Source: an uncultured Bacilli bacterium (lineage in GTDB: Bacteria; Bacillota_I; Bacilli_A; RF39; UBA660). From it: a stretch of 64,000 nt of DNA. Positions 36,001-42,000 of the stretch are shown here, in pieces. The stretch's first letter is position 1; the number at the start of each line of letters is the position of its first letter. The DNA is taken from positions 390,599 through 454,598 of the forward strand of contig CAKOUW010000001.1 of the NCBI GenBank assembly GCA_934120715.1, written 5' to 3'. The position numbers are program-made.

Positions 36001-39000
36001 GGGCTGGTAGTATATTTTTTATAGCTTGAGGAAAAATAATATATTGCATTACTTGTCTATAGTTTAGACTTAGAGCATAACCGGCTTCTCTTTGTCCTTT
36101 ATCGACTGAATCTAGACCAGCTCTTATTATTTCAGCAACATAGGCTGCACTATTTAGACCAAATGATAGAATACCTACTAGGACAATATTTATAGAGGTT
36201 GTTTTAAATATAACATAGTAAATTATCATTAACTGAAGAATACTTGGAGTACCTCTTATTATTGTTATATATATTTTAGCTAAAATATTTAAGAGTTTTA
36301 ATTTATTAGTATTATCATGATAATTTCTTACTATAGCAAGTAAAGTACCTAGAATAACACCTATTACTACAGCACCTAGAGCTATTAAAAGTGTATTAAT
36401 AAGACCTTCAATAATATATTTATATCTTCCTTCATAGATAACACTACTATAGAATTTATCAATAATACCTAGAGATGATTTTTTATCGTTTTCTATTCCC
36501 ATATGCTTTAAAATGATGTCATCAATCTCACCACTTTTTTTCATTTTATTGATCACATTATTACAAGCTTCTAATAGTTCTTCATTGTCTTTTCTTACTA
36601 CCATGCCATAGTTATCTACAACTAGAGGCTCTTTTAATATTTTCATATCATCTGTTATTAATTTGGTAGCTGGTAGATAGTCCATAACAACAGCATTAAC
36701 TTTATCATCTTTTAGATCTTGAATAGCTGCTAAAAACTTTTTTTCTCTAATAACTGTAACAGTCTTATAGTTTTCTGTTAAATAGGAATCAGCTGTTGTG
36801 CCTAATTGAACGGCTACTTTACCAGATAGATTTTTACTACTTGTTATGTGACTATTCTTTTTTACTATAATTACTTGTTTTGATGAAGCATAATTATCAG
36901 TAAAAGCTACTTCTTTAGCACGTTCTTTAGTATATGAGATACCTGCTGCACCAAGATCACTTTTTGATGTTTTAATTTCACTGATTATAGAATCAAAGGC
37001 AACATCTTTTATTACTAATTCTTTTCCTAAATAGTCTGCTATTTTTTTAGCTATATCAATATCTACTCCAACAATTTCACCATTAGAATAATATTCATAG
37101 GGAGCAAATCCTGCCTCTGTTACTAGAGTAAGTTGTTCTTTATTTTTATCAGTACATCCAGTAATTAAGATGGAAAATATTATGGTTATAATTATTATAA
37201 TTGTTTTCTTTTTCATATTAACACCTTCTATAGATAAAAGGGGATTATCCCCTTTTTACCTTATAAAATTAACATAGCTATAGTTAGTACTAAAATATTA
37301 GCTAAGAATATACAAGCTAGAACTTTAAATACCCATTTTAACCAAGTAGTATATTCAACTTTAGCTAACGCTAGACCACCCATTATAGCTCCACAAGTTG
37401 GAGTAAATAGGTTTACAAAACCGTTTGCTGCTACCATACCCATTATAGTGGCTTCTATACTGTAGCCTACTCTTTGAGCAAGAGGAGCCATTATTGGAGA
37501 TGATAGAGTTGCTAGTCCACTACTTGATGGAACTAATACTGATAGGAAACCATGGAAAATATAGTTTACTGGGGCAAATATTACTTTTGGTACAGATTGT
37601 AGTAATGAGGCTACATTATGAATTAGATAGTTATCCAAATATGTTTCACTCATTAATACTGAAGCACCTCTAGCAAGAGCAATTATTAATACTACTCCCA
37701 CCATATCATCAGCTCCATCTACTAACTTATCAACTATTTCATGTTCCTTCATTCTATTAACAATAGCAATAATAATAGCCATTAATAAAAACCAAAGTGA
37801 AGCTTCTTGGAAATACCATTGTCCTATAGGAACACCAGCAAGCCAAGATAGACCTAAAATTTTAGAATTAGCAAAGAAAGTAATACCAAAGTCTTCCCAT
37901 GGAATGAAGCTTGCTATCATGATAACGAAAGTTAGTGCAAATAGAATTAAAGTTATCTTTTGTTTTCCAGATAGTTTTACTTCTTCTTTTGGAATATCTT
38001 CACCATATGTTGCTTCCATGGCTTTTTGTTCTTGAAGGCTTAAGATAGTTGAACCTTTTTTCTTTATTACTTTTTTAGCATAAGACATTACAAATAGAAT
38101 TGAAATAAGTAAGGTTGTTAACCATAATACTGTTCCTAATCCAATTATTACACCTTGATTTATTACTGTTCCTTTTGGTAAGACTGCTTTAGCGGCATCT
38201 ACTGCAACACCAACAGCGAATGGGTTAACAGTTGATCCTAGAACACCTGATCCTGCTCCAAGTAGGACAATAGCAGATGAGACAACGGTATCCATTCCAG
38301 CTGCTACCATAGTGGCAGCAAGTAAAGCATAAAAGCCTACTGTCTCTTCTAACATTCCATATGTTGTACCACCGATTGAGAATAGAATCATTAAAATAGG
38401 AATTAATACTAGTTCATGTCCATGAAGTTTTTTTATTAAGACTTGAATTCCTGTTTCAATTGCTTCTGTTGAATTAACAATTTTTAAGAATGCTCCAAGG
38501 ATTAAAACAAAGACGCATATATCGATGGCATCACCAAATCCTTGAATAGGAGCTAATAAAGTTTGGGCTAGACTGGCACCTACAACACCACTTCCATCTA
38601 CTACATTATCACCGATAAACGAAGCTGTAGGTAATAAGTGTGTTACTAGACCTAATATAAATATTAGTAATAATATGATAGTAAAAGCACTTAGTGAAAA
38701 AGCTGCTCTTTTTTTCTTTTCTACTTTTTTTACCCCTTGTTGATAAATCATAGTACCTGTTTTTCCATCTTTGGCTTCTTTAGCCTTATCTAATGAAGAA
38801 ATGATGGCTTTTTTCTCTGTTCCTCTAACAAATTCGATAGCTGATTCTATTTTTGGTAACATACTACCTTCTTTAAATTCTTCATTTCTTATACCAACTC
38901 TTGCTTCTGAAACAGACAATTTATCAATTTTCTTTTCATTTTCCTTGTCATAATTTAGAGATACTTTTTCAACGTCCGTTAAAATTAATAATTCATCGGC

Positions 39001-42000
39001 ATTTATCTCCTTAGCAAGTAAGGCACTTGTTCTATCTTTGTCAATTACGGCATCTATTCCTTCATAACCATCTTTTTTAGTCATAACAACAGGAATACCA
39101 CCACCACCGCAAGCAATAACTATAGTTCCTTCTGACATTAATTTTTCAATTGTTGCAAGTTCAAGAATTTTTTTAGGTTTAGGTGATGCTACTACTTTTC
39201 GGTATCCTCTACCAGCATCTTCTTTATAAATGCCTTGACCTTCTTTTTTTCTTTTCATGGCTTCTTCTCTTGTTAAAAATTCGCCAATTGGTTTGGTTGG
39301 ATTTTGAAAAGCTGGATCTTTTGGATCTACTTCTACTTGGGTAAGAACTGTCACAACATTTTTATTAATGTGTCTTTTATTTAATTCATCTTTTAGTGAT
39401 TGTTGTAGTTGATATCCAATATATCCTTGAGACATGGCACCACTTTCGGCAAATGGCATATTTTCATCTTTCATGGAATTATATATCATACCAACTTGTG
39501 GCCCATTACCATGAGTGATTACAACTTGATTTCCAGCTTCAATTATGTCTACTAAGTACTTAGCAGTTTTATCAATTAAATCATGCTGTTCTTCTTGTTT
39601 TTTTCCTAACGCGTTACCCCCTAATGCAATAACTATTTTACTCATTTTAAAGTCTCCAACATTACAGCTTTGATTGTATGAAGTCTATTTTCAGCTTCTT
39701 CAAATACTCTAGATTTGCTAGACTCAAACACCTCGTCTGTAACTTCCATTTCTTTTATTCCAAATTTTTCTTCTATTTCTTTACCTATTTTAGTTTCATT
39801 GTTATGAAATGATGGTAGGCAGTGCAAGAAGATAGCACTTTCTTTAGCATTATTCATTACATCCATGGTTACTTGATATGGTTTTAGCAATTCAATTCTT
39901 GCCTTCCATAACTCTTCTTTTTCGCCCATTGATACCCAAACGTCAGTATAAATGGCATCAGCATTTTTAGTAGCTGCCATTATATCCTCTTCTGTTTCTA
40001 TAATGGCTCCTGTTTCTTGAGCTATTTCTTGGCACTGGGCAATTAAATTTTCATCTGGAAATAGTTCCTTTGGAGCACAGCATGTAAAGTTAATTCCTAA
40101 CTTAGAACATATAACCATTAAAGAGTTACCAACATTATTTCTGGCATCTCCACAAAAGACTAGTTTTCTTCCCTTTAGGTCACCAAACTCTTCTTGCATA
40201 GTCATTATATCAGCTAACATTTGTGTTGGATGAAATTCATTTGTTAAGCCATTCCAAACAGGAACTTTACTATACTTAGCTAAGCTTTCAACGATATCTT
40301 GACCGAAACCACGGTACTCAATACCATCATACATCTTATCTAAAACTCTAGCTGTATCTTCGATAGTTTCTTTCTTACCCATTTGTGATCCAGTTGGTCC
40401 TAGGTAAGTTGCGGACATACCAAGATCATTAGCTCCAACTTCGAAGGCACATCTTGTCCTAGTAGAATCTTTTTCAAAGATCATAGCAATCTGTTTTCCT
40501 TCTAGATATCTATGGGGTTCATGATTTCTTTTCTTCTTTTTTAAATCTATTGCTACTGAAAGTAAATACTCTATTTCTTCTTTTGAATAATCTAGTAGTT
40601 TTAAAAAATCTCTTCCTCTTAAATCTACCATTCAACATCCTCCCTTACTAGTGGCATAGACATACATCTTGGACCACCTCGTCCACGACCTAATTCAGCA
40701 CCATGGACTTCAATTACTTTAAGTCCGGCTTTGCGTAATACATCATTTGTTACATTATTTCTGTCATATACTACAACTGTTCCTGGAGCAATACAAAGTG
40801 TATTTGAACCATCATTCCATTGCTCTCTTTCTGATGCTACTTTATCCCCTCCAGCACAAGGAATTAAAGTTACTGGATGATGAAGATATTTTTCTAATAT
40901 TTCTTCTAATGACCCATTTACTTCTTTTACGTTTAAGTCTTCAAAAGTTGTAGGATCAAAGCCTTCAGTAATTTCAAATACTTGTAATGTATCTGATATT
41001 CCAGGATGATAAGTAAATGTGTACTTATCTATTTGAGTAAATACTGTGTCTAAGTGCATAAATGCTCTAGATACAGGAATATTGAATGCAAGAATAGTAT
41101 CAATATTACAGCTTAAATCTTTAAAGAAATTCTTTGCAATTTGATCAATTGCAGCAGCGGAAGTTCTTTGAGAAATACCTATCGCTACTATGTGATCATT
41201 AATATTTAATAAGTCTCCACCTTCAGTATGCCAATGATATGATCTATTATAGTATAGTGGCGTATTTTTATAATCTTTATGATATTTAAATACATATTCT
41301 GCATAAATACACTCTCTATTTCTGGTTACTGAATACATGTGATTTAAGTTTATTCCCTCTCCTACACTAGCAAAATTATCTCTTGTAAAATATAAGTTTG
41401 GCATAGGTGCAGCAATAAACTTTTCTGGCTCATCGACTAAGTCAACTAGAGTCTTTTCAATTTCTCTTTTTCTAGATGGGAAGTCTTTTATTTGAATTCC
41501 TTCCATAGTTTGCAATACTAGTTTTTTAGAGTCTTTTATTCTATCTAGAAAATTATAAGCTAAGTTCTGATATTTAATAGTATGAATTCCAGCTTCTTCT
41601 ATAAATTGTTTTATAAATTTACTACGAATTTCACTGCTACTATCAAGCACTTCGGCTACCAAATCCTCTAAATAGACAACTTCTACACCATTGTCTCTTA
41701 AAGCATCAGCAAAAGCATCATGTTCTTTTTGTGCATCTTCTAAGTATGGAATATCATCAAAAAGTAATTCTCCTAGTGTATCAGGTGTTAAATTTAGTAA
41801 TTCGTTTCCTGGTCTATGTAATAATACTTTTTTTAATTTTCCAATTTCACTTGTTACGTGAATGTTACTCATTCTTTTCCTTCTCCTTTCAGTAGTATAA
41901 TAATAAGATGCCACTTATTATCTATTTTAATTATACCAAATTTAAATTTTATGTAAATAGTTAAAGATAGACAGTTTCCAAATTTTTGGTAAAAAAAAGA

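What the first reader, a model, noticed from the sequence alone, without database searches (positions are those of the whole stretch)
37261..39645. Carbamate kinase fused in frame to the ADI-pathway antiporter (ArcC-ArcD fusion)
A complete carbamate kinase (all glycine-rich motifs through ...GKTGTMI) runs through a 20-aa basic linker directly into a YfcC/DcuC-type 10-12 TM transporter. That transporter family supplies ArcD-type arginine/ornithine antiporters in some Firmicutes ADI clusters. A soluble ATP-generating enzyme tethered to the antiporter would be an unusual metabolon-type fusion.
Basis: seen in the sequence. Interest (0 to 1): 0.6.

Follow-up and report, generated by a model that had tools for sequence, protein, structure and literature searches.

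The report
Carbamate kinase fused to arginine/ornithine exchanger
In a group of uncultured gut bacteria, the ATP-making last enzyme of arginine fermentation is permanently joined to the membrane transporter that swaps arginine for ornithine; this fusion is real, conserved, appears to have arisen more than once, and I found no description of it in the literature.

Summary
**Observation confirmed.** Window 37261-39645 (-) is one 794-aa ORF. It has three parts:
- a complete carbamate kinase (res 1-300; TIGR00746 above its cut-off);
- a 15-residue basic tether predicted to be disordered;
- a DcuC/YfcC-type transporter (res 316-794).

It is the third gene of an overlapping arcA-arcB-arcC::transporter operon.

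**Not a sequencing error.** The identical protein occurs in at least 5 independent samples. More than 250 full-length fused relatives (52-100% identity) carry 52 different linkers of 15-29 aa, all in frame. Both domains are under strong purifying selection (dN/dS 0.09-0.19 at dS about 1).

**Transporter family.** It belongs to the family Noens & Lolkema named ArcE (TC 2.A.118), shown in S. pneumoniae to exchange arginine, ornithine and citrulline. It is not the APC-type ArcD.

**Origin.** The closest unfused relatives have arcC and arcE adjacent, with the stop 1-4 nt before the ATG or the two frames overlapping. Fusion needs only loss of the stop or a frameshift. It occurs in at least two forms:
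- seamless, with no internal start (window clade);
- stop-less, reading through a retained Shine-Dalgarno and ATG (L011-L015).

These forms sit on separate branches of the gene tree.

**What is open.** Any kinetic or metabolon benefit is inferred, not shown. I found no published description.

The parts
37261..39645 (-). Fused arcC::arcE ORF, 794 aa including the stop codon at 37261-37263. Its ATG overlaps the arcB stop by 4 nt.
38746..39645 (-). Carbamate kinase domain, residues 1-300, complete to the normal C-terminus (...GKTGTMI).
   Evidence: TIGR00746 369 bits, above cut-off. PDB 1e19 and 1b7b aligned to their ends. AF2 model matches solved CK structures at target-normalised TM 0.83-0.91. 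The motifs GGN, HGNGPQVG, GGGG and DKD are invariant, and G-S-M-x-P-K of GSMLPK is invariant with L263 nearly so, in 70 fused sequences. dN/dS 0.12-0.19.
38701..38745 (-). Tether, residues 301-315 (YQQGVKKVEKKKRAA, net +5). It has no in-frame start codon. It contains GGGG and two A7 runs, and an out-of-frame TAA where unfused relatives have the arcC stop.
   Evidence: pLDDT below 50 for residues 304-318. The linker is variable in relatives.
37264..38700 (-). ArcE-type (DcuC/YfcC Pfam family, TC 2.A.118) transporter domain, residues 316-794. TM1 is at about 316-337.
   Evidence: Pfam DcuC 270 bits. 38% identity over about 475 aa to the gene after arcC in S. mitis. The model resembles AbgT-family MtrF 4r1i and YdaH 4r0c (TMt 0.62-0.66). 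Hydropathy and charge distribution. dN/dS 0.09-0.17.
39642..40631 (-). arcB, catabolic-type ornithine carbamoyltransferase, 329 aa.
   Evidence: Pfam OTCace_N + OTCace
40625..41872 (-). arcA, arginine deiminase. The probable start is the ATG at 41872 (415 aa, preceded by GGAGAAGG). The ORF listing extends it to a GTG at 41914.
   Evidence: Pfam ADI 385 bits. Gene calls of 415 aa on identical contigs. Sequence.
41930..41957 (-). Best sigma-70-like promoter match of the region (TTTACA-16-TATAAT with an extended -10 TG, 11 of 12), upstream of arcA.
   Evidence: This is a consensus match only. The total number of promoter-like sites equals the shuffle expectation.
37236..37256 (-). Hairpin AAAAGGGG-ataat-CCCCTTTT in the 44-nt gap between the fusion stop and the next gene. 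It may be a weak terminator or attenuator.
   Evidence: dG -14.2 kcal/mol, z -2.6
35074..37216 (-). Polar amino-acid ABC importer: a fused substrate-binding-protein/permease gene (35786-37216) and an ATPase gene (35074-35799). It is linked to the arc cluster in the window clade and in several relatives.

Best explanation
The ORF encodes a genuine bifunctional membrane protein. A cytoplasmic carbamate kinase (carbamoyl-P + ADP -> ATP + carbamate) is tethered by a short basic disordered linker to the cytoplasmic N-terminus of an ArcE-type arginine/ornithine (and probably citrulline) exchanger. It is expressed as the third cistron of a translationally coupled arcA-arcB-arcC::arcE operon. The fusion arose from an ancestral arcC-arcE gene pair in which the arcE Shine-Dalgarno sits inside the last arcC codons and the stop lies 1-4 nt before the ATG or the frames overlap. 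An indel or stop loss put arcC in the arcE frame. In the window clade the old ATG was then lost, so from this gene neither a free kinase nor a free transporter can be made. The shown consequences are an obligatory 1:1 stoichiometry and membrane localisation of the kinase. The inferred consequence concerns the ornithine carbamoyltransferase step, whose equilibrium favours the reverse direction about 10^5-fold. Its two products are removed by the kinase (carbamoyl-P) and the exchanger (ornithine). The fusion puts these two sinks side by side, which may help pull arginine catabolism forward and may recruit the transcarbamoylase to the membrane.
For: Single ORF with both complete domains. Operon with overlapping start and stop codons. 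The identical protein occurs in at least 5 samples, and the same operon occurs in a species at 82% identity. More than 250 fused homologues have 52 in-frame linker variants, all net positive. dN/dS is 0.09-0.19 in both domains at dS about 1 within the fused clade, and the kinase motifs are conserved. Unfused sisters have the junction '..GGAG..TAA(t)ATG..' or overlapping frames. The window has an out-of-frame TAA at the same place and GTA-GAA-AAG-AAAAAAAGA where L019 has ATG-GCA-AAG-AAAAAAAGA. There is no in-frame start codon in the linker of WIN, L006 or L010. The AF2 model has two folded domains joined by a low-confidence linker, followed by TM1. The N-terminal tail is +5 and the first loop has no K or R, which fits an N-in topology. 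ArcE exchange activity is shown in S. pneumoniae (PMC5300872). The OTC Keq of about 10^5 and the dimeric state of carbamate kinase are from PMC7818446. In S. gordonii, ornithine build-up in the exchanger mutant starves the kinase (PMC4571851).
Against: No expression, protein or activity data exist for any fused member. The kinase and exchanger share no substrate, so classical channelling between the two fused parts is impossible, and the proposed benefit needs a third partner (OTC). Close relatives do well without the fusion (L018-L027, L033), and its patchy distribution fits a nearly neutral, easily toggled state. A 1:1 kinase:transporter ratio may even be suboptimal. Only 64 kb of the genome was searched for a second arcC. 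Oligomer compatibility (dimeric kinase with a presumably dimeric AbgT-like transporter) is inferred, not modelled.
Confidence: 0.8

Rival explanations
1. The fusion is a selectively near-neutral 'operon-neighbour' fusion. It is functional, but membrane tethering of the kinase gives no kinetic or regulatory advantage. It recurs only because the ancestral stop/start junction makes it a one-mutation event.
For: Unfused sisters have junctions one indel away from fusion. Fused and unfused states are interleaved on the gene tree. Linker sequences are unconstrained. The kinase and exchanger share no ligand.
Against: The fusion has persisted through near-saturation of synonymous sites in the window clade (dS about 1). 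It dominates the database hits of this lineage (239 of the 240 best hits listed are fused). The window clade also lost the internal start, making the fusion irreversible by a simple stop mutation. These observations are compatible with neutrality but are also what selection would give.
Confidence: 0.4
2. One ORF but separate proteins. The kinase and transporter are separated after or during translation by linker proteolysis, by internal initiation (in the stop-less forms), or by ribosome slippage on the GGGG/A7 runs into the frame that carries TAA.
For: L011-L015 retain a strong SD (AAAGGAGG or similar) and the native ATG inside the ORF, so a free transporter can be made there. The window has GGGG-TAA in the +1 frame and two A7 runs. 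The linker is predicted to be disordered and exposed.
Against: In the window clade the linker has no in-frame ATG, GTG or TTG, and M299 is not conserved (V or L in relatives). The GGGG-TAA slippery context is absent in L006 (GAG-GTA-CAA). No conserved cleavage motif is seen, because the linkers differ completely between clades. Internal initiation would never yield free kinase.
Confidence: 0.12
3. Sequencing or assembly artefact: a homopolymer indel in the A-rich junction falsely joined two genes.
For: The junction holds GGGG and two A7 runs. The closest unfused relatives differ by a frame shift.
Against: The identical protein occurs in at least 5 independent samples with differently named assemblies. 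Hundreds of fused homologues have different junction DNA and in-frame length variation. At least 6 further species representatives have a single stop-free ORF.
Confidence: 0.01
4. The transporter half serves mainly a different exchange, such as citrulline/ornithine feeding only ArcB and ArcC, or another solute, rather than arginine/ornithine.
For: S. pneumoniae ArcE translocates citrulline efficiently, and a short ArcE-ArcB-ArcC pathway has been proposed (PMC5300872). An ABC amino-acid importer sits next to the operon and could supply arginine. Identity to streptococcal ArcE is only 38%.
Against: arcA is present and translationally coupled in the same operon. The position after arcC matches characterised arcE genes.
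Confidence: 0.15

Closest known systems
arcA-arcB-arcC-arcE clusters of streptococci (S. pneumoniae ArcE; Noens & Lolkema 2017, PMC5300872; the S. gordonii and S. suis genes there called 'ArcD')
   Same: Same four functions and the same gene order, with the transporter directly after arcC. Same transporter family (Pfam DcuC, TC 2.A.118). The S. mitis homologue next to arcC is 38% identical over about 475 aa.
   Different: In streptococci arcC and arcE are separate genes with an intergenic gap of about 60-90 nt (stop-to-stop ORF coordinates of L032, L049, L057 and L060). Here they form one polypeptide. The paper contains no occurrence of 'fused' or 'fusion'.
Unfused arcC/arcE pairs of sister gut Bacilli (L018-L024, L026, L027, L033)
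   Same: 56-60% (kinase) and 58-70% (transporter) identity. Same operon, and for L018, L023 and L033 the same downstream ABC importer.
   Different: The stop codon is retained 1-4 nt before the arcE ATG, or the frames overlap, so two proteins are made by translational coupling.
Stop-less arcC::arcE fusions (L011-L015, e.g. 'Clostridium sp. CAG:524')
   Same: A single ORF spanning both domains, 52-63% identical to the window protein.
   Different: The kinase frame reads through an intact Shine-Dalgarno and the transporter's own ATG (…KGGKKMAK…), so a free transporter can also be made. They lie on different branches of the gene tree. L011-L013 have no arcB between arcA and the fusion.
Other carbamate kinase fusions (OTC-CK, AllH-CK)
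   Same: The kinase is covalently joined to a pathway partner. Seen in the representative library as P0263 (OTCace_N+OTCace+AA_kinase, 637 aa) and P0208/P0248 (AllH+AA_kinase).
   Different: In those, the partner is the enzyme that makes carbamoyl phosphate, so substrate hand-over is direct, and the kinase is C-terminal and soluble. Here the partner is a membrane transporter and the kinase is N-terminal.
Classical ArcD arginine/ornithine antiporters (APC superfamily; P. aeruginosa, L. lactis)
   Same: Same physiological role in the pathway.
   Different: An unrelated fold and family: LeuT fold versus IT superfamily (PMC5300872). No APC-type Pfam domain is found in the window protein.
AbgT-family transporters MtrF (4r1i) and YdaH (4r0c)
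   Same: Closest solved folds to the transporter half of the model (TMt 0.62-0.66, E about 1e-9 to 1e-8). Same superfamily, per PMC5300872.
   Different: 14-16% identity and different substrates. No sequence-level PDB match exists.

Membership tests
Carbamate kinase (ArcC, TIGR00746, EC 2.7.2.2) | Full-length match above the curated equivalog cut-off | tested here: met
   369.1 bits vs 358.25, res 3-301 to model 2-308 of 309
Carbamate kinase (ArcC, TIGR00746, EC 2.7.2.2) | Conserved glycine-rich and catalytic motifs, and the amino-acid-kinase fold of solved CKs | tested here: met
   G9-G10-N11, H45-G52, G180-G183, D202-K203-D204 and G260-S261-M262-P264-K265 are invariant, and L263 nearly so, in 70 fused sequences. 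Target-normalised TM is 0.83-0.91 to 1e19, 1b7b, 2we4, 3kzf, 8crv and others. Assigning the motifs to catalysis rests on my own knowledge of CK structures.
Carbamate kinase (ArcC, TIGR00746, EC 2.7.2.2) | Genomic association with arcA and arcB | tested here: met
   Overlapping arcA-arcB-fusion genes
Carbamate kinase (ArcC, TIGR00746, EC 2.7.2.2) | ATP formation from carbamoyl phosphate + ADP | not testable with these tools
   Needs an enzyme assay
ArcE exchanger family (TC 2.A.118; Pfam DcuC PF03606) | Pfam DcuC domain spanning the membrane part | tested here: met
   270.3 bits, res 366-791 to model 68-460 of 461
ArcE exchanger family (TC 2.A.118; Pfam DcuC PF03606) | Homology to the characterised streptococcal ArcE, and position directly after arcC | tested here: met
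   38% identity over res 4-478 of the domain to the gene after arcC in S. mitis and Streptococcus sp. (L049, L032). S. mitis is used as a proxy for S. pneumoniae. The gene order arcA-arcB-arcC-arcE is from PMC5300872.
ArcE exchanger family (TC 2.A.118; Pfam DcuC PF03606) | Electroneutral arginine/ornithine (and citrulline) exchange | not testable with these tools
   Needs transport assays like those of PMC5300872
E. coli YfcC orthologue (NF008611 equivalog) | Score above the equivalog cut-off | tested here: not met
   179.7 bits vs cut-off 500. Same broad family, but not a YfcC orthologue.
Classical ArcD (APC superfamily antiporter) | APC / amino-acid permease domain | tested here: not met
   Only AA_kinase and DcuC were found. 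ArcD and ArcE are unrelated (PMC5300872).
Gene fusion of operon neighbours (Rosetta-stone type) | The two halves exist as separate adjacent genes in related genomes | tested here: met
   L018-L024, L026, L027, L033, and more distant L016, L017, L028-L034 and Streptococcus
Transport metabolon (enzyme physically and functionally coupled to a transporter) | Physical linkage of the enzyme to the transporter | tested here: met
   Covalent linkage in a single ORF
Transport metabolon (enzyme physically and functionally coupled to a transporter) | The enzyme uses or produces the transported solute, or flux is demonstrably enhanced | tested here: not met
   From the established reactions, carbamate kinase handles carbamoyl-P, ADP, ATP and carbamate, while the exchanger handles arginine, ornithine and citrulline. 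They share no ligand. Flux enhancement is not testable here.

The most novel reading that the evidence does not exclude
The fusion is an adaptive, convergently evolved way to build a membrane-anchored arginine deiminase metabolon. The tethered dimeric kinase docks the hexameric ornithine carbamoyltransferase under the exchanger. Ornithine is then exported and carbamoyl phosphate consumed at the site where they are made, which pulls a reaction that is about 10^5-fold unfavourable and protects labile carbamoyl phosphate. Independent origins in several lineages of small-genome gut Bacilli would then reflect selection for ATP yield from arginine.
Probability: 0.25. Interest if true: 0.65.

Novelty: new variant of a known kind. 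Interest (0 to 1): 0.45.

Why it matters
The arginine deiminase pathway is a textbook minimal ATP-generating module and is used in synthetic-cell work. Its enzymes and its exchanger have always been treated as separate soluble and membrane parts. A natural, conserved and apparently recurrent covalent kinase-exchanger protein offers several things:
- **A test of co-localisation.** Fused and split versions differ by one stop codon, so one can ask directly whether co-localisation matters for a thermodynamically uphill middle step.
- **A one-polypeptide part.** It could simplify pathway reconstitution.
- **A handle on an unsolved family.** The soluble domain may help structural work on the ArcE family, which has no solved structure.
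- **An example of gene-junction evolution.** It shows how tightly coupled stop/start junctions seed repeated gene fusion.
- **An annotation fix.** Public annotation calls the protein just 'carbamate kinase' (e.g. MDY4996598.1), which hides the operon's transporter.

Tried and rejected
- **Sequencing error at the homopolymer-rich junction:** rejected.
- **Internal start for a separate transporter in the window clade:** no in-frame start codon in the linker, and M299 is not conserved.
- **Second arcC or arcE copy:** none in the 64-kb window. The whole genome could not be searched.
- **Single origin of the fusion:** disfavoured by the tree and by the different junction anatomies.
- **Representative search suggesting extreme rarity:** one search found only one other fused representative. 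This turned out to be a clustering effect. All fused proteins fall within one 50%-identity cluster, yet that cluster is large and diverse.
- **tblastn matches to residues 1-794 in Streptococcus, Eggerthellaceae, Leptotrichia, Treponema and others:** these are adjacent separate genes, not fusions.
- **My recollection that Halobacterium ArcD belongs to this family:** wrong. It is an NhaC-family protein (PMC5300872).
- **Literature searches for a described fusion:** nothing relevant found.
- **PDB sequence search with the transporter half:** no hit.
- **Rfam scan of the window:** no hit.
- **First bootstrap script:** timed out and was redone.
- **afdb50 fold library:** not available.
- **Promoter scan:** total hits equal the shuffle expectation, so only the single 11-of-12 site upstream of arcA is mentioned, as a lead.

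
Full report
**Observation.** The window has one ATG-initiated ORF at 37261..39645 on the minus strand, 794 aa.
- Pfam finds an amino-acid-kinase domain (res 3-282) and a DcuC domain (res 366-791).
- NCBIfam scores the N-terminal 301 residues as carbamate kinase above the equivalog cut-off (TIGR00746, 369.1 vs 358.25 bits, model positions 2-308 of 309).
- Solved carbamate kinases align to their very C-termini (1e19_A, E 1.1e-81; 1b7b).
- The other two frames across the junction are closed by many stops.
- The ORF start overlaps the arcB stop by 4 nt, and arcB overlaps arcA. The arrangement is therefore a translationally coupled arcA-arcB-arcC::transporter operon.
- Upstream of arcA lies the best sigma-70-like site of the region and an arcA ATG with a good ribosome-binding site at 41872.

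**Is it an artefact?** The junction DNA carries GGGG and two A7 runs, the kind of sequence where indel errors occur. Several results rule this out.
- The identical 794-aa protein lies on 9 contigs. The 5 places shown come from 5 different samples with differently named assemblies, always in the same gene order.
- A species at 82% identity has the same operon.
- The first homology search returned more than 120 clusters at 81-82% identity, all 793-796 aa with both Pfam domains.
- A search seeded with a distant fused relative (L015) returned 119 fused proteins of 792-811 aa among its 120 best hits.
- My pattern located the linker in 168 of the 253 fused proteins in hand. These gave 52 different linkers of 15-29 residues, all in frame and all net positive. 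Sixteen of the variants still contain a start-like Met.
- Within the window clade, synonymous sites are near saturation (dS about 1). dN/dS is 0.12-0.19 for the kinase and 0.09-0.17 for the transporter.
- The kinase signature motifs are conserved across 70 diverse fused sequences.

Both halves are therefore maintained as functional coding sequence in the fused state.

**What the transporter is.** Noens & Lolkema (PMC5300872) showed that about half of bacterial arc clusters carry a transporter unrelated to classical ArcD. They named it ArcE (TC 2.A.118, IT superfamily).
- The S. pneumoniae protein catalyses electroneutral arginine/ornithine exchange (affinities 0.6 and 1 µM) and also moves citrulline.
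- Its gene follows arcC (arcA-arcB-arcC-arcE).
- The transporter half of the window protein is 38% identical over about 475 residues to the gene that follows arcC in S. mitis and other streptococci.
- It falls below the E. coli YfcC equivalog cut-off and has no sequence match in the PDB.
- In the AF2 model its fold is closest to the AbgT transporters MtrF and YdaH (TMt 0.62-0.66). This agrees with the superfamily assignment in the paper.

The accurate label is therefore 'ArcC-ArcE fusion'.

**Anatomy of the junction.** Stand-alone kinases end 2-3 residues after 'GT.I'. Stand-alone ArcE proteins start 'M-x-KKK-x-x-F-S-L-S-x-F'. In the window protein, residues 301-315 (YQQGVKKVEKKKRAA) bridge the two halves. 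KKKRAA is the transporter's own cytoplasmic tail, so only about 9 residues are new.
- The AF2 model (mean pLDDT 78.9) has two well-folded domains, pLDDT below 50 for residues 304-318, and TM1 from about residue 320.
- The tail is +5 and the first loop after TM1 has no Lys or Arg. This fits an N-in topology, as required for a kinase that uses ADP.

**Origin and distribution.** The exhaustive search of 1.84 billion 50%-identity representatives found only one other fused representative (P0135, 63% identity). All other strong hits were stand-alone transporters (about 480 aa) or kinases (about 310 aa). The architecture is thus confined to one sequence cluster, but that cluster is large.

In GTDB species representatives I tested every locus for a single stop-free ORF carrying both domains.
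- **Fused:** the window species, the 82% species, L010 (73-74%), L011-L013 ('Clostridium sp. CAG:524' and two MAGs), L014 and L015. All are uncultured Bacilli-type MAGs, variously labelled Bacilli, Clostridium or Mycoplasma.
- **Unfused:** L018-L024, L026, L027 and L033 have arcC directly followed by arcE as separate genes, although their transporters (58-70% identity) are as close or closer to the window's than those of fused L011-L015 (59-63%). L025 is also unfused but has the reverse order, arcE upstream of arcC.

The junction DNA explains this pattern.
- In L018-L024 and L027 the arcE Shine-Dalgarno lies in the last arcC codons. The stop lies 1-4 nt before the ATG (..GGAG-TAA-t-ATG..).
- In L033 the two frames overlap.
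- In L026 a spacer of about 20 nt holding the Shine-Dalgarno separates the two genes.
- L011-L015 are 'stop-less'. The kinase frame runs through an intact AAAGGAGG-type Shine-Dalgarno and the native ATG (…KGGKKMAK…).
- The window clade (WIN, L006, L010) is seamless. There is no in-frame start, an out-of-frame TAA sits where the sisters stop, and GTA-GAA-AAG-AAAAAAAGA appears where L019 has ATG-GCA-AAG-AAAAAAAGA.

A neighbour-joining tree of the two domains (200 bootstraps) places the window clade (100%) inside a 100%-supported group with unfused L018, L023 and L033. L011-13, L014 and L015 sit on other branches. The most economical reading is at least two, and possibly four, independent fusions, with reversions not excluded.

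Three caveats apply. This is a gene tree, not a species tree. The arc cluster may also move horizontally.

**How it most likely works.**
- *Shown:* in the window clade, every kinase molecule made from this gene is covalently attached to an exchanger, and the reverse. Stoichiometry is fixed at 1:1 and the kinase is membrane-bound. No second copy of either gene exists in the 64-kb window.
- *Inferred:* both activities are retained (motif conservation, purifying selection). The tether is flexible.
- *Hypothesis:* the ornithine carbamoyltransferase step is unfavourable by about 10^5 (PMC7818446), and its two products are removed by exactly the two fused activities. In S. gordonii, loss of the exchanger causes ornithine accumulation. 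The authors interpret the resulting drop in ATP and NH3 as depletion of carbamoyl phosphate, the kinase's substrate (PMC4571851). Placing both sinks together, and possibly docking the transcarbamoylase, could therefore help.

This last step is untested. The kinase and exchanger share no ligand, and unfused relatives manage well. A near-neutral, mutationally easy fusion is therefore a serious rival (I put it at about 0.4 as the reason the fusion exists).

Separate products through cleavage, slippage on GGGG/A7, or internal initiation are possible for the stop-less forms. They are poorly supported for the window clade.

**Comparison with what is known, and novelty.** The components and the pathway are textbook. 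What is new is the architecture.
- The ArcE paper contains no occurrence of 'fused' or 'fusion'.
- Three full-text searches found no description of the fusion.
- Public annotation labels the protein simply 'carbamate kinase'.
- Other carbamate kinase fusions exist in the databases, but with the enzymes that make carbamoyl phosphate: OTC-CK and AllH-CK.

I rate this a new variant of a known kind, of moderate interest. It is a clean natural experiment on enzyme-transporter tethering and on recurrent fusion at coupled gene junctions. It is not a new mechanism.

Noticed in passing
L011:4772-8391, L012:284-3930, L013:4769-8391: In the stop-less fusion group ('Clostridium sp. CAG:524' and two MAGs), arcA abuts the fused arcC::arcE directly. 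No arcB (ornithine carbamoyltransferase) was found anywhere in the 9-14 kb loci at E <= 1e-25, so the middle enzyme is encoded elsewhere or is missing.
   Followed up: partly
proteins P0263, P0247, P0208, P0248 (representative library): Other carbamate kinase fusions exist: OTCace_N+OTCace+AA_kinase (637 aa) and AllH (oxamate carbamoyltransferase subunit)+AA_kinase (586 and 598 aa). In these the kinase is joined to the enzyme that produces carbamoyl phosphate.
   Followed up: partly
proteins P0174, P0202, P0220, P0233: ArcE/DcuC-type transporters of 593-645 aa have N-terminal extensions of 100-200 residues with no Pfam match. The nature of these extensions is unknown.
   Followed up: no
window 35074-37216 (-): A polar amino-acid ABC importer with a fused substrate-binding/permease polypeptide plus an ATPase lies 44 nt downstream of the fusion gene. 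It is linked to the arc cluster in the window clade and in unfused L018, L023 and L033 (downstream), and in L015, L024 and L025 (upstream). It may be a second arginine uptake route.
   Followed up: partly
window 37236-37256 (-): Hairpin AAAAGGGG-ataat-CCCCTTTT between the fusion stop and the ABC gene (dG -14.2 kcal/mol, z -2.6). It may be a weak terminator or attenuator separating the two transcription units. The simple terminator scan did not flag it.
   Followed up: partly
window 41872-41914 (-): The mechanical ORF for arcA starts at a GTG at 41914 (429 aa). The ATG at 41872, preceded by GGAGAAGG, gives the 415-aa product that gene callers report on identical contigs.
   Followed up: yes
window 7942-10425 and 10577-13864 (-): Two very large proteins (827 and 1095 aa) begin with a prepilin-type N-terminal methylation motif (PF07963). 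One has only a sub-threshold Ig-like hit and the other has no further Pfam match. These are unusually long pilin-like proteins.
   Followed up: no
window 31356-34897 (-): A MarR/HTH-like gene, a RhuM-family gene and a Fic-domain gene sit next to a 410-aa penicillin-binding protein (PBP_dimer+Transpeptidase). That protein is much shorter than the 716-aa PBP at 48434-50584. The block is absent at this position in the 82% species, so it may be an inserted island.
   Followed up: no
window 442-2232 (-): A 596-aa ORF with no Pfam match.
   Followed up: no
window 42023-42532 and 44863-46452 (-): Sortase-anchored surface proteins lie upstream of the arc operon. The first ends in an LPSTG-type anchor motif. 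The second has SpaA and Gram_pos_anchor domains. Together with the PBPs they show that the host is a walled Gram-positive, despite relatives being labelled 'Mycoplasma' or 'Tenericutes'.
   Followed up: no
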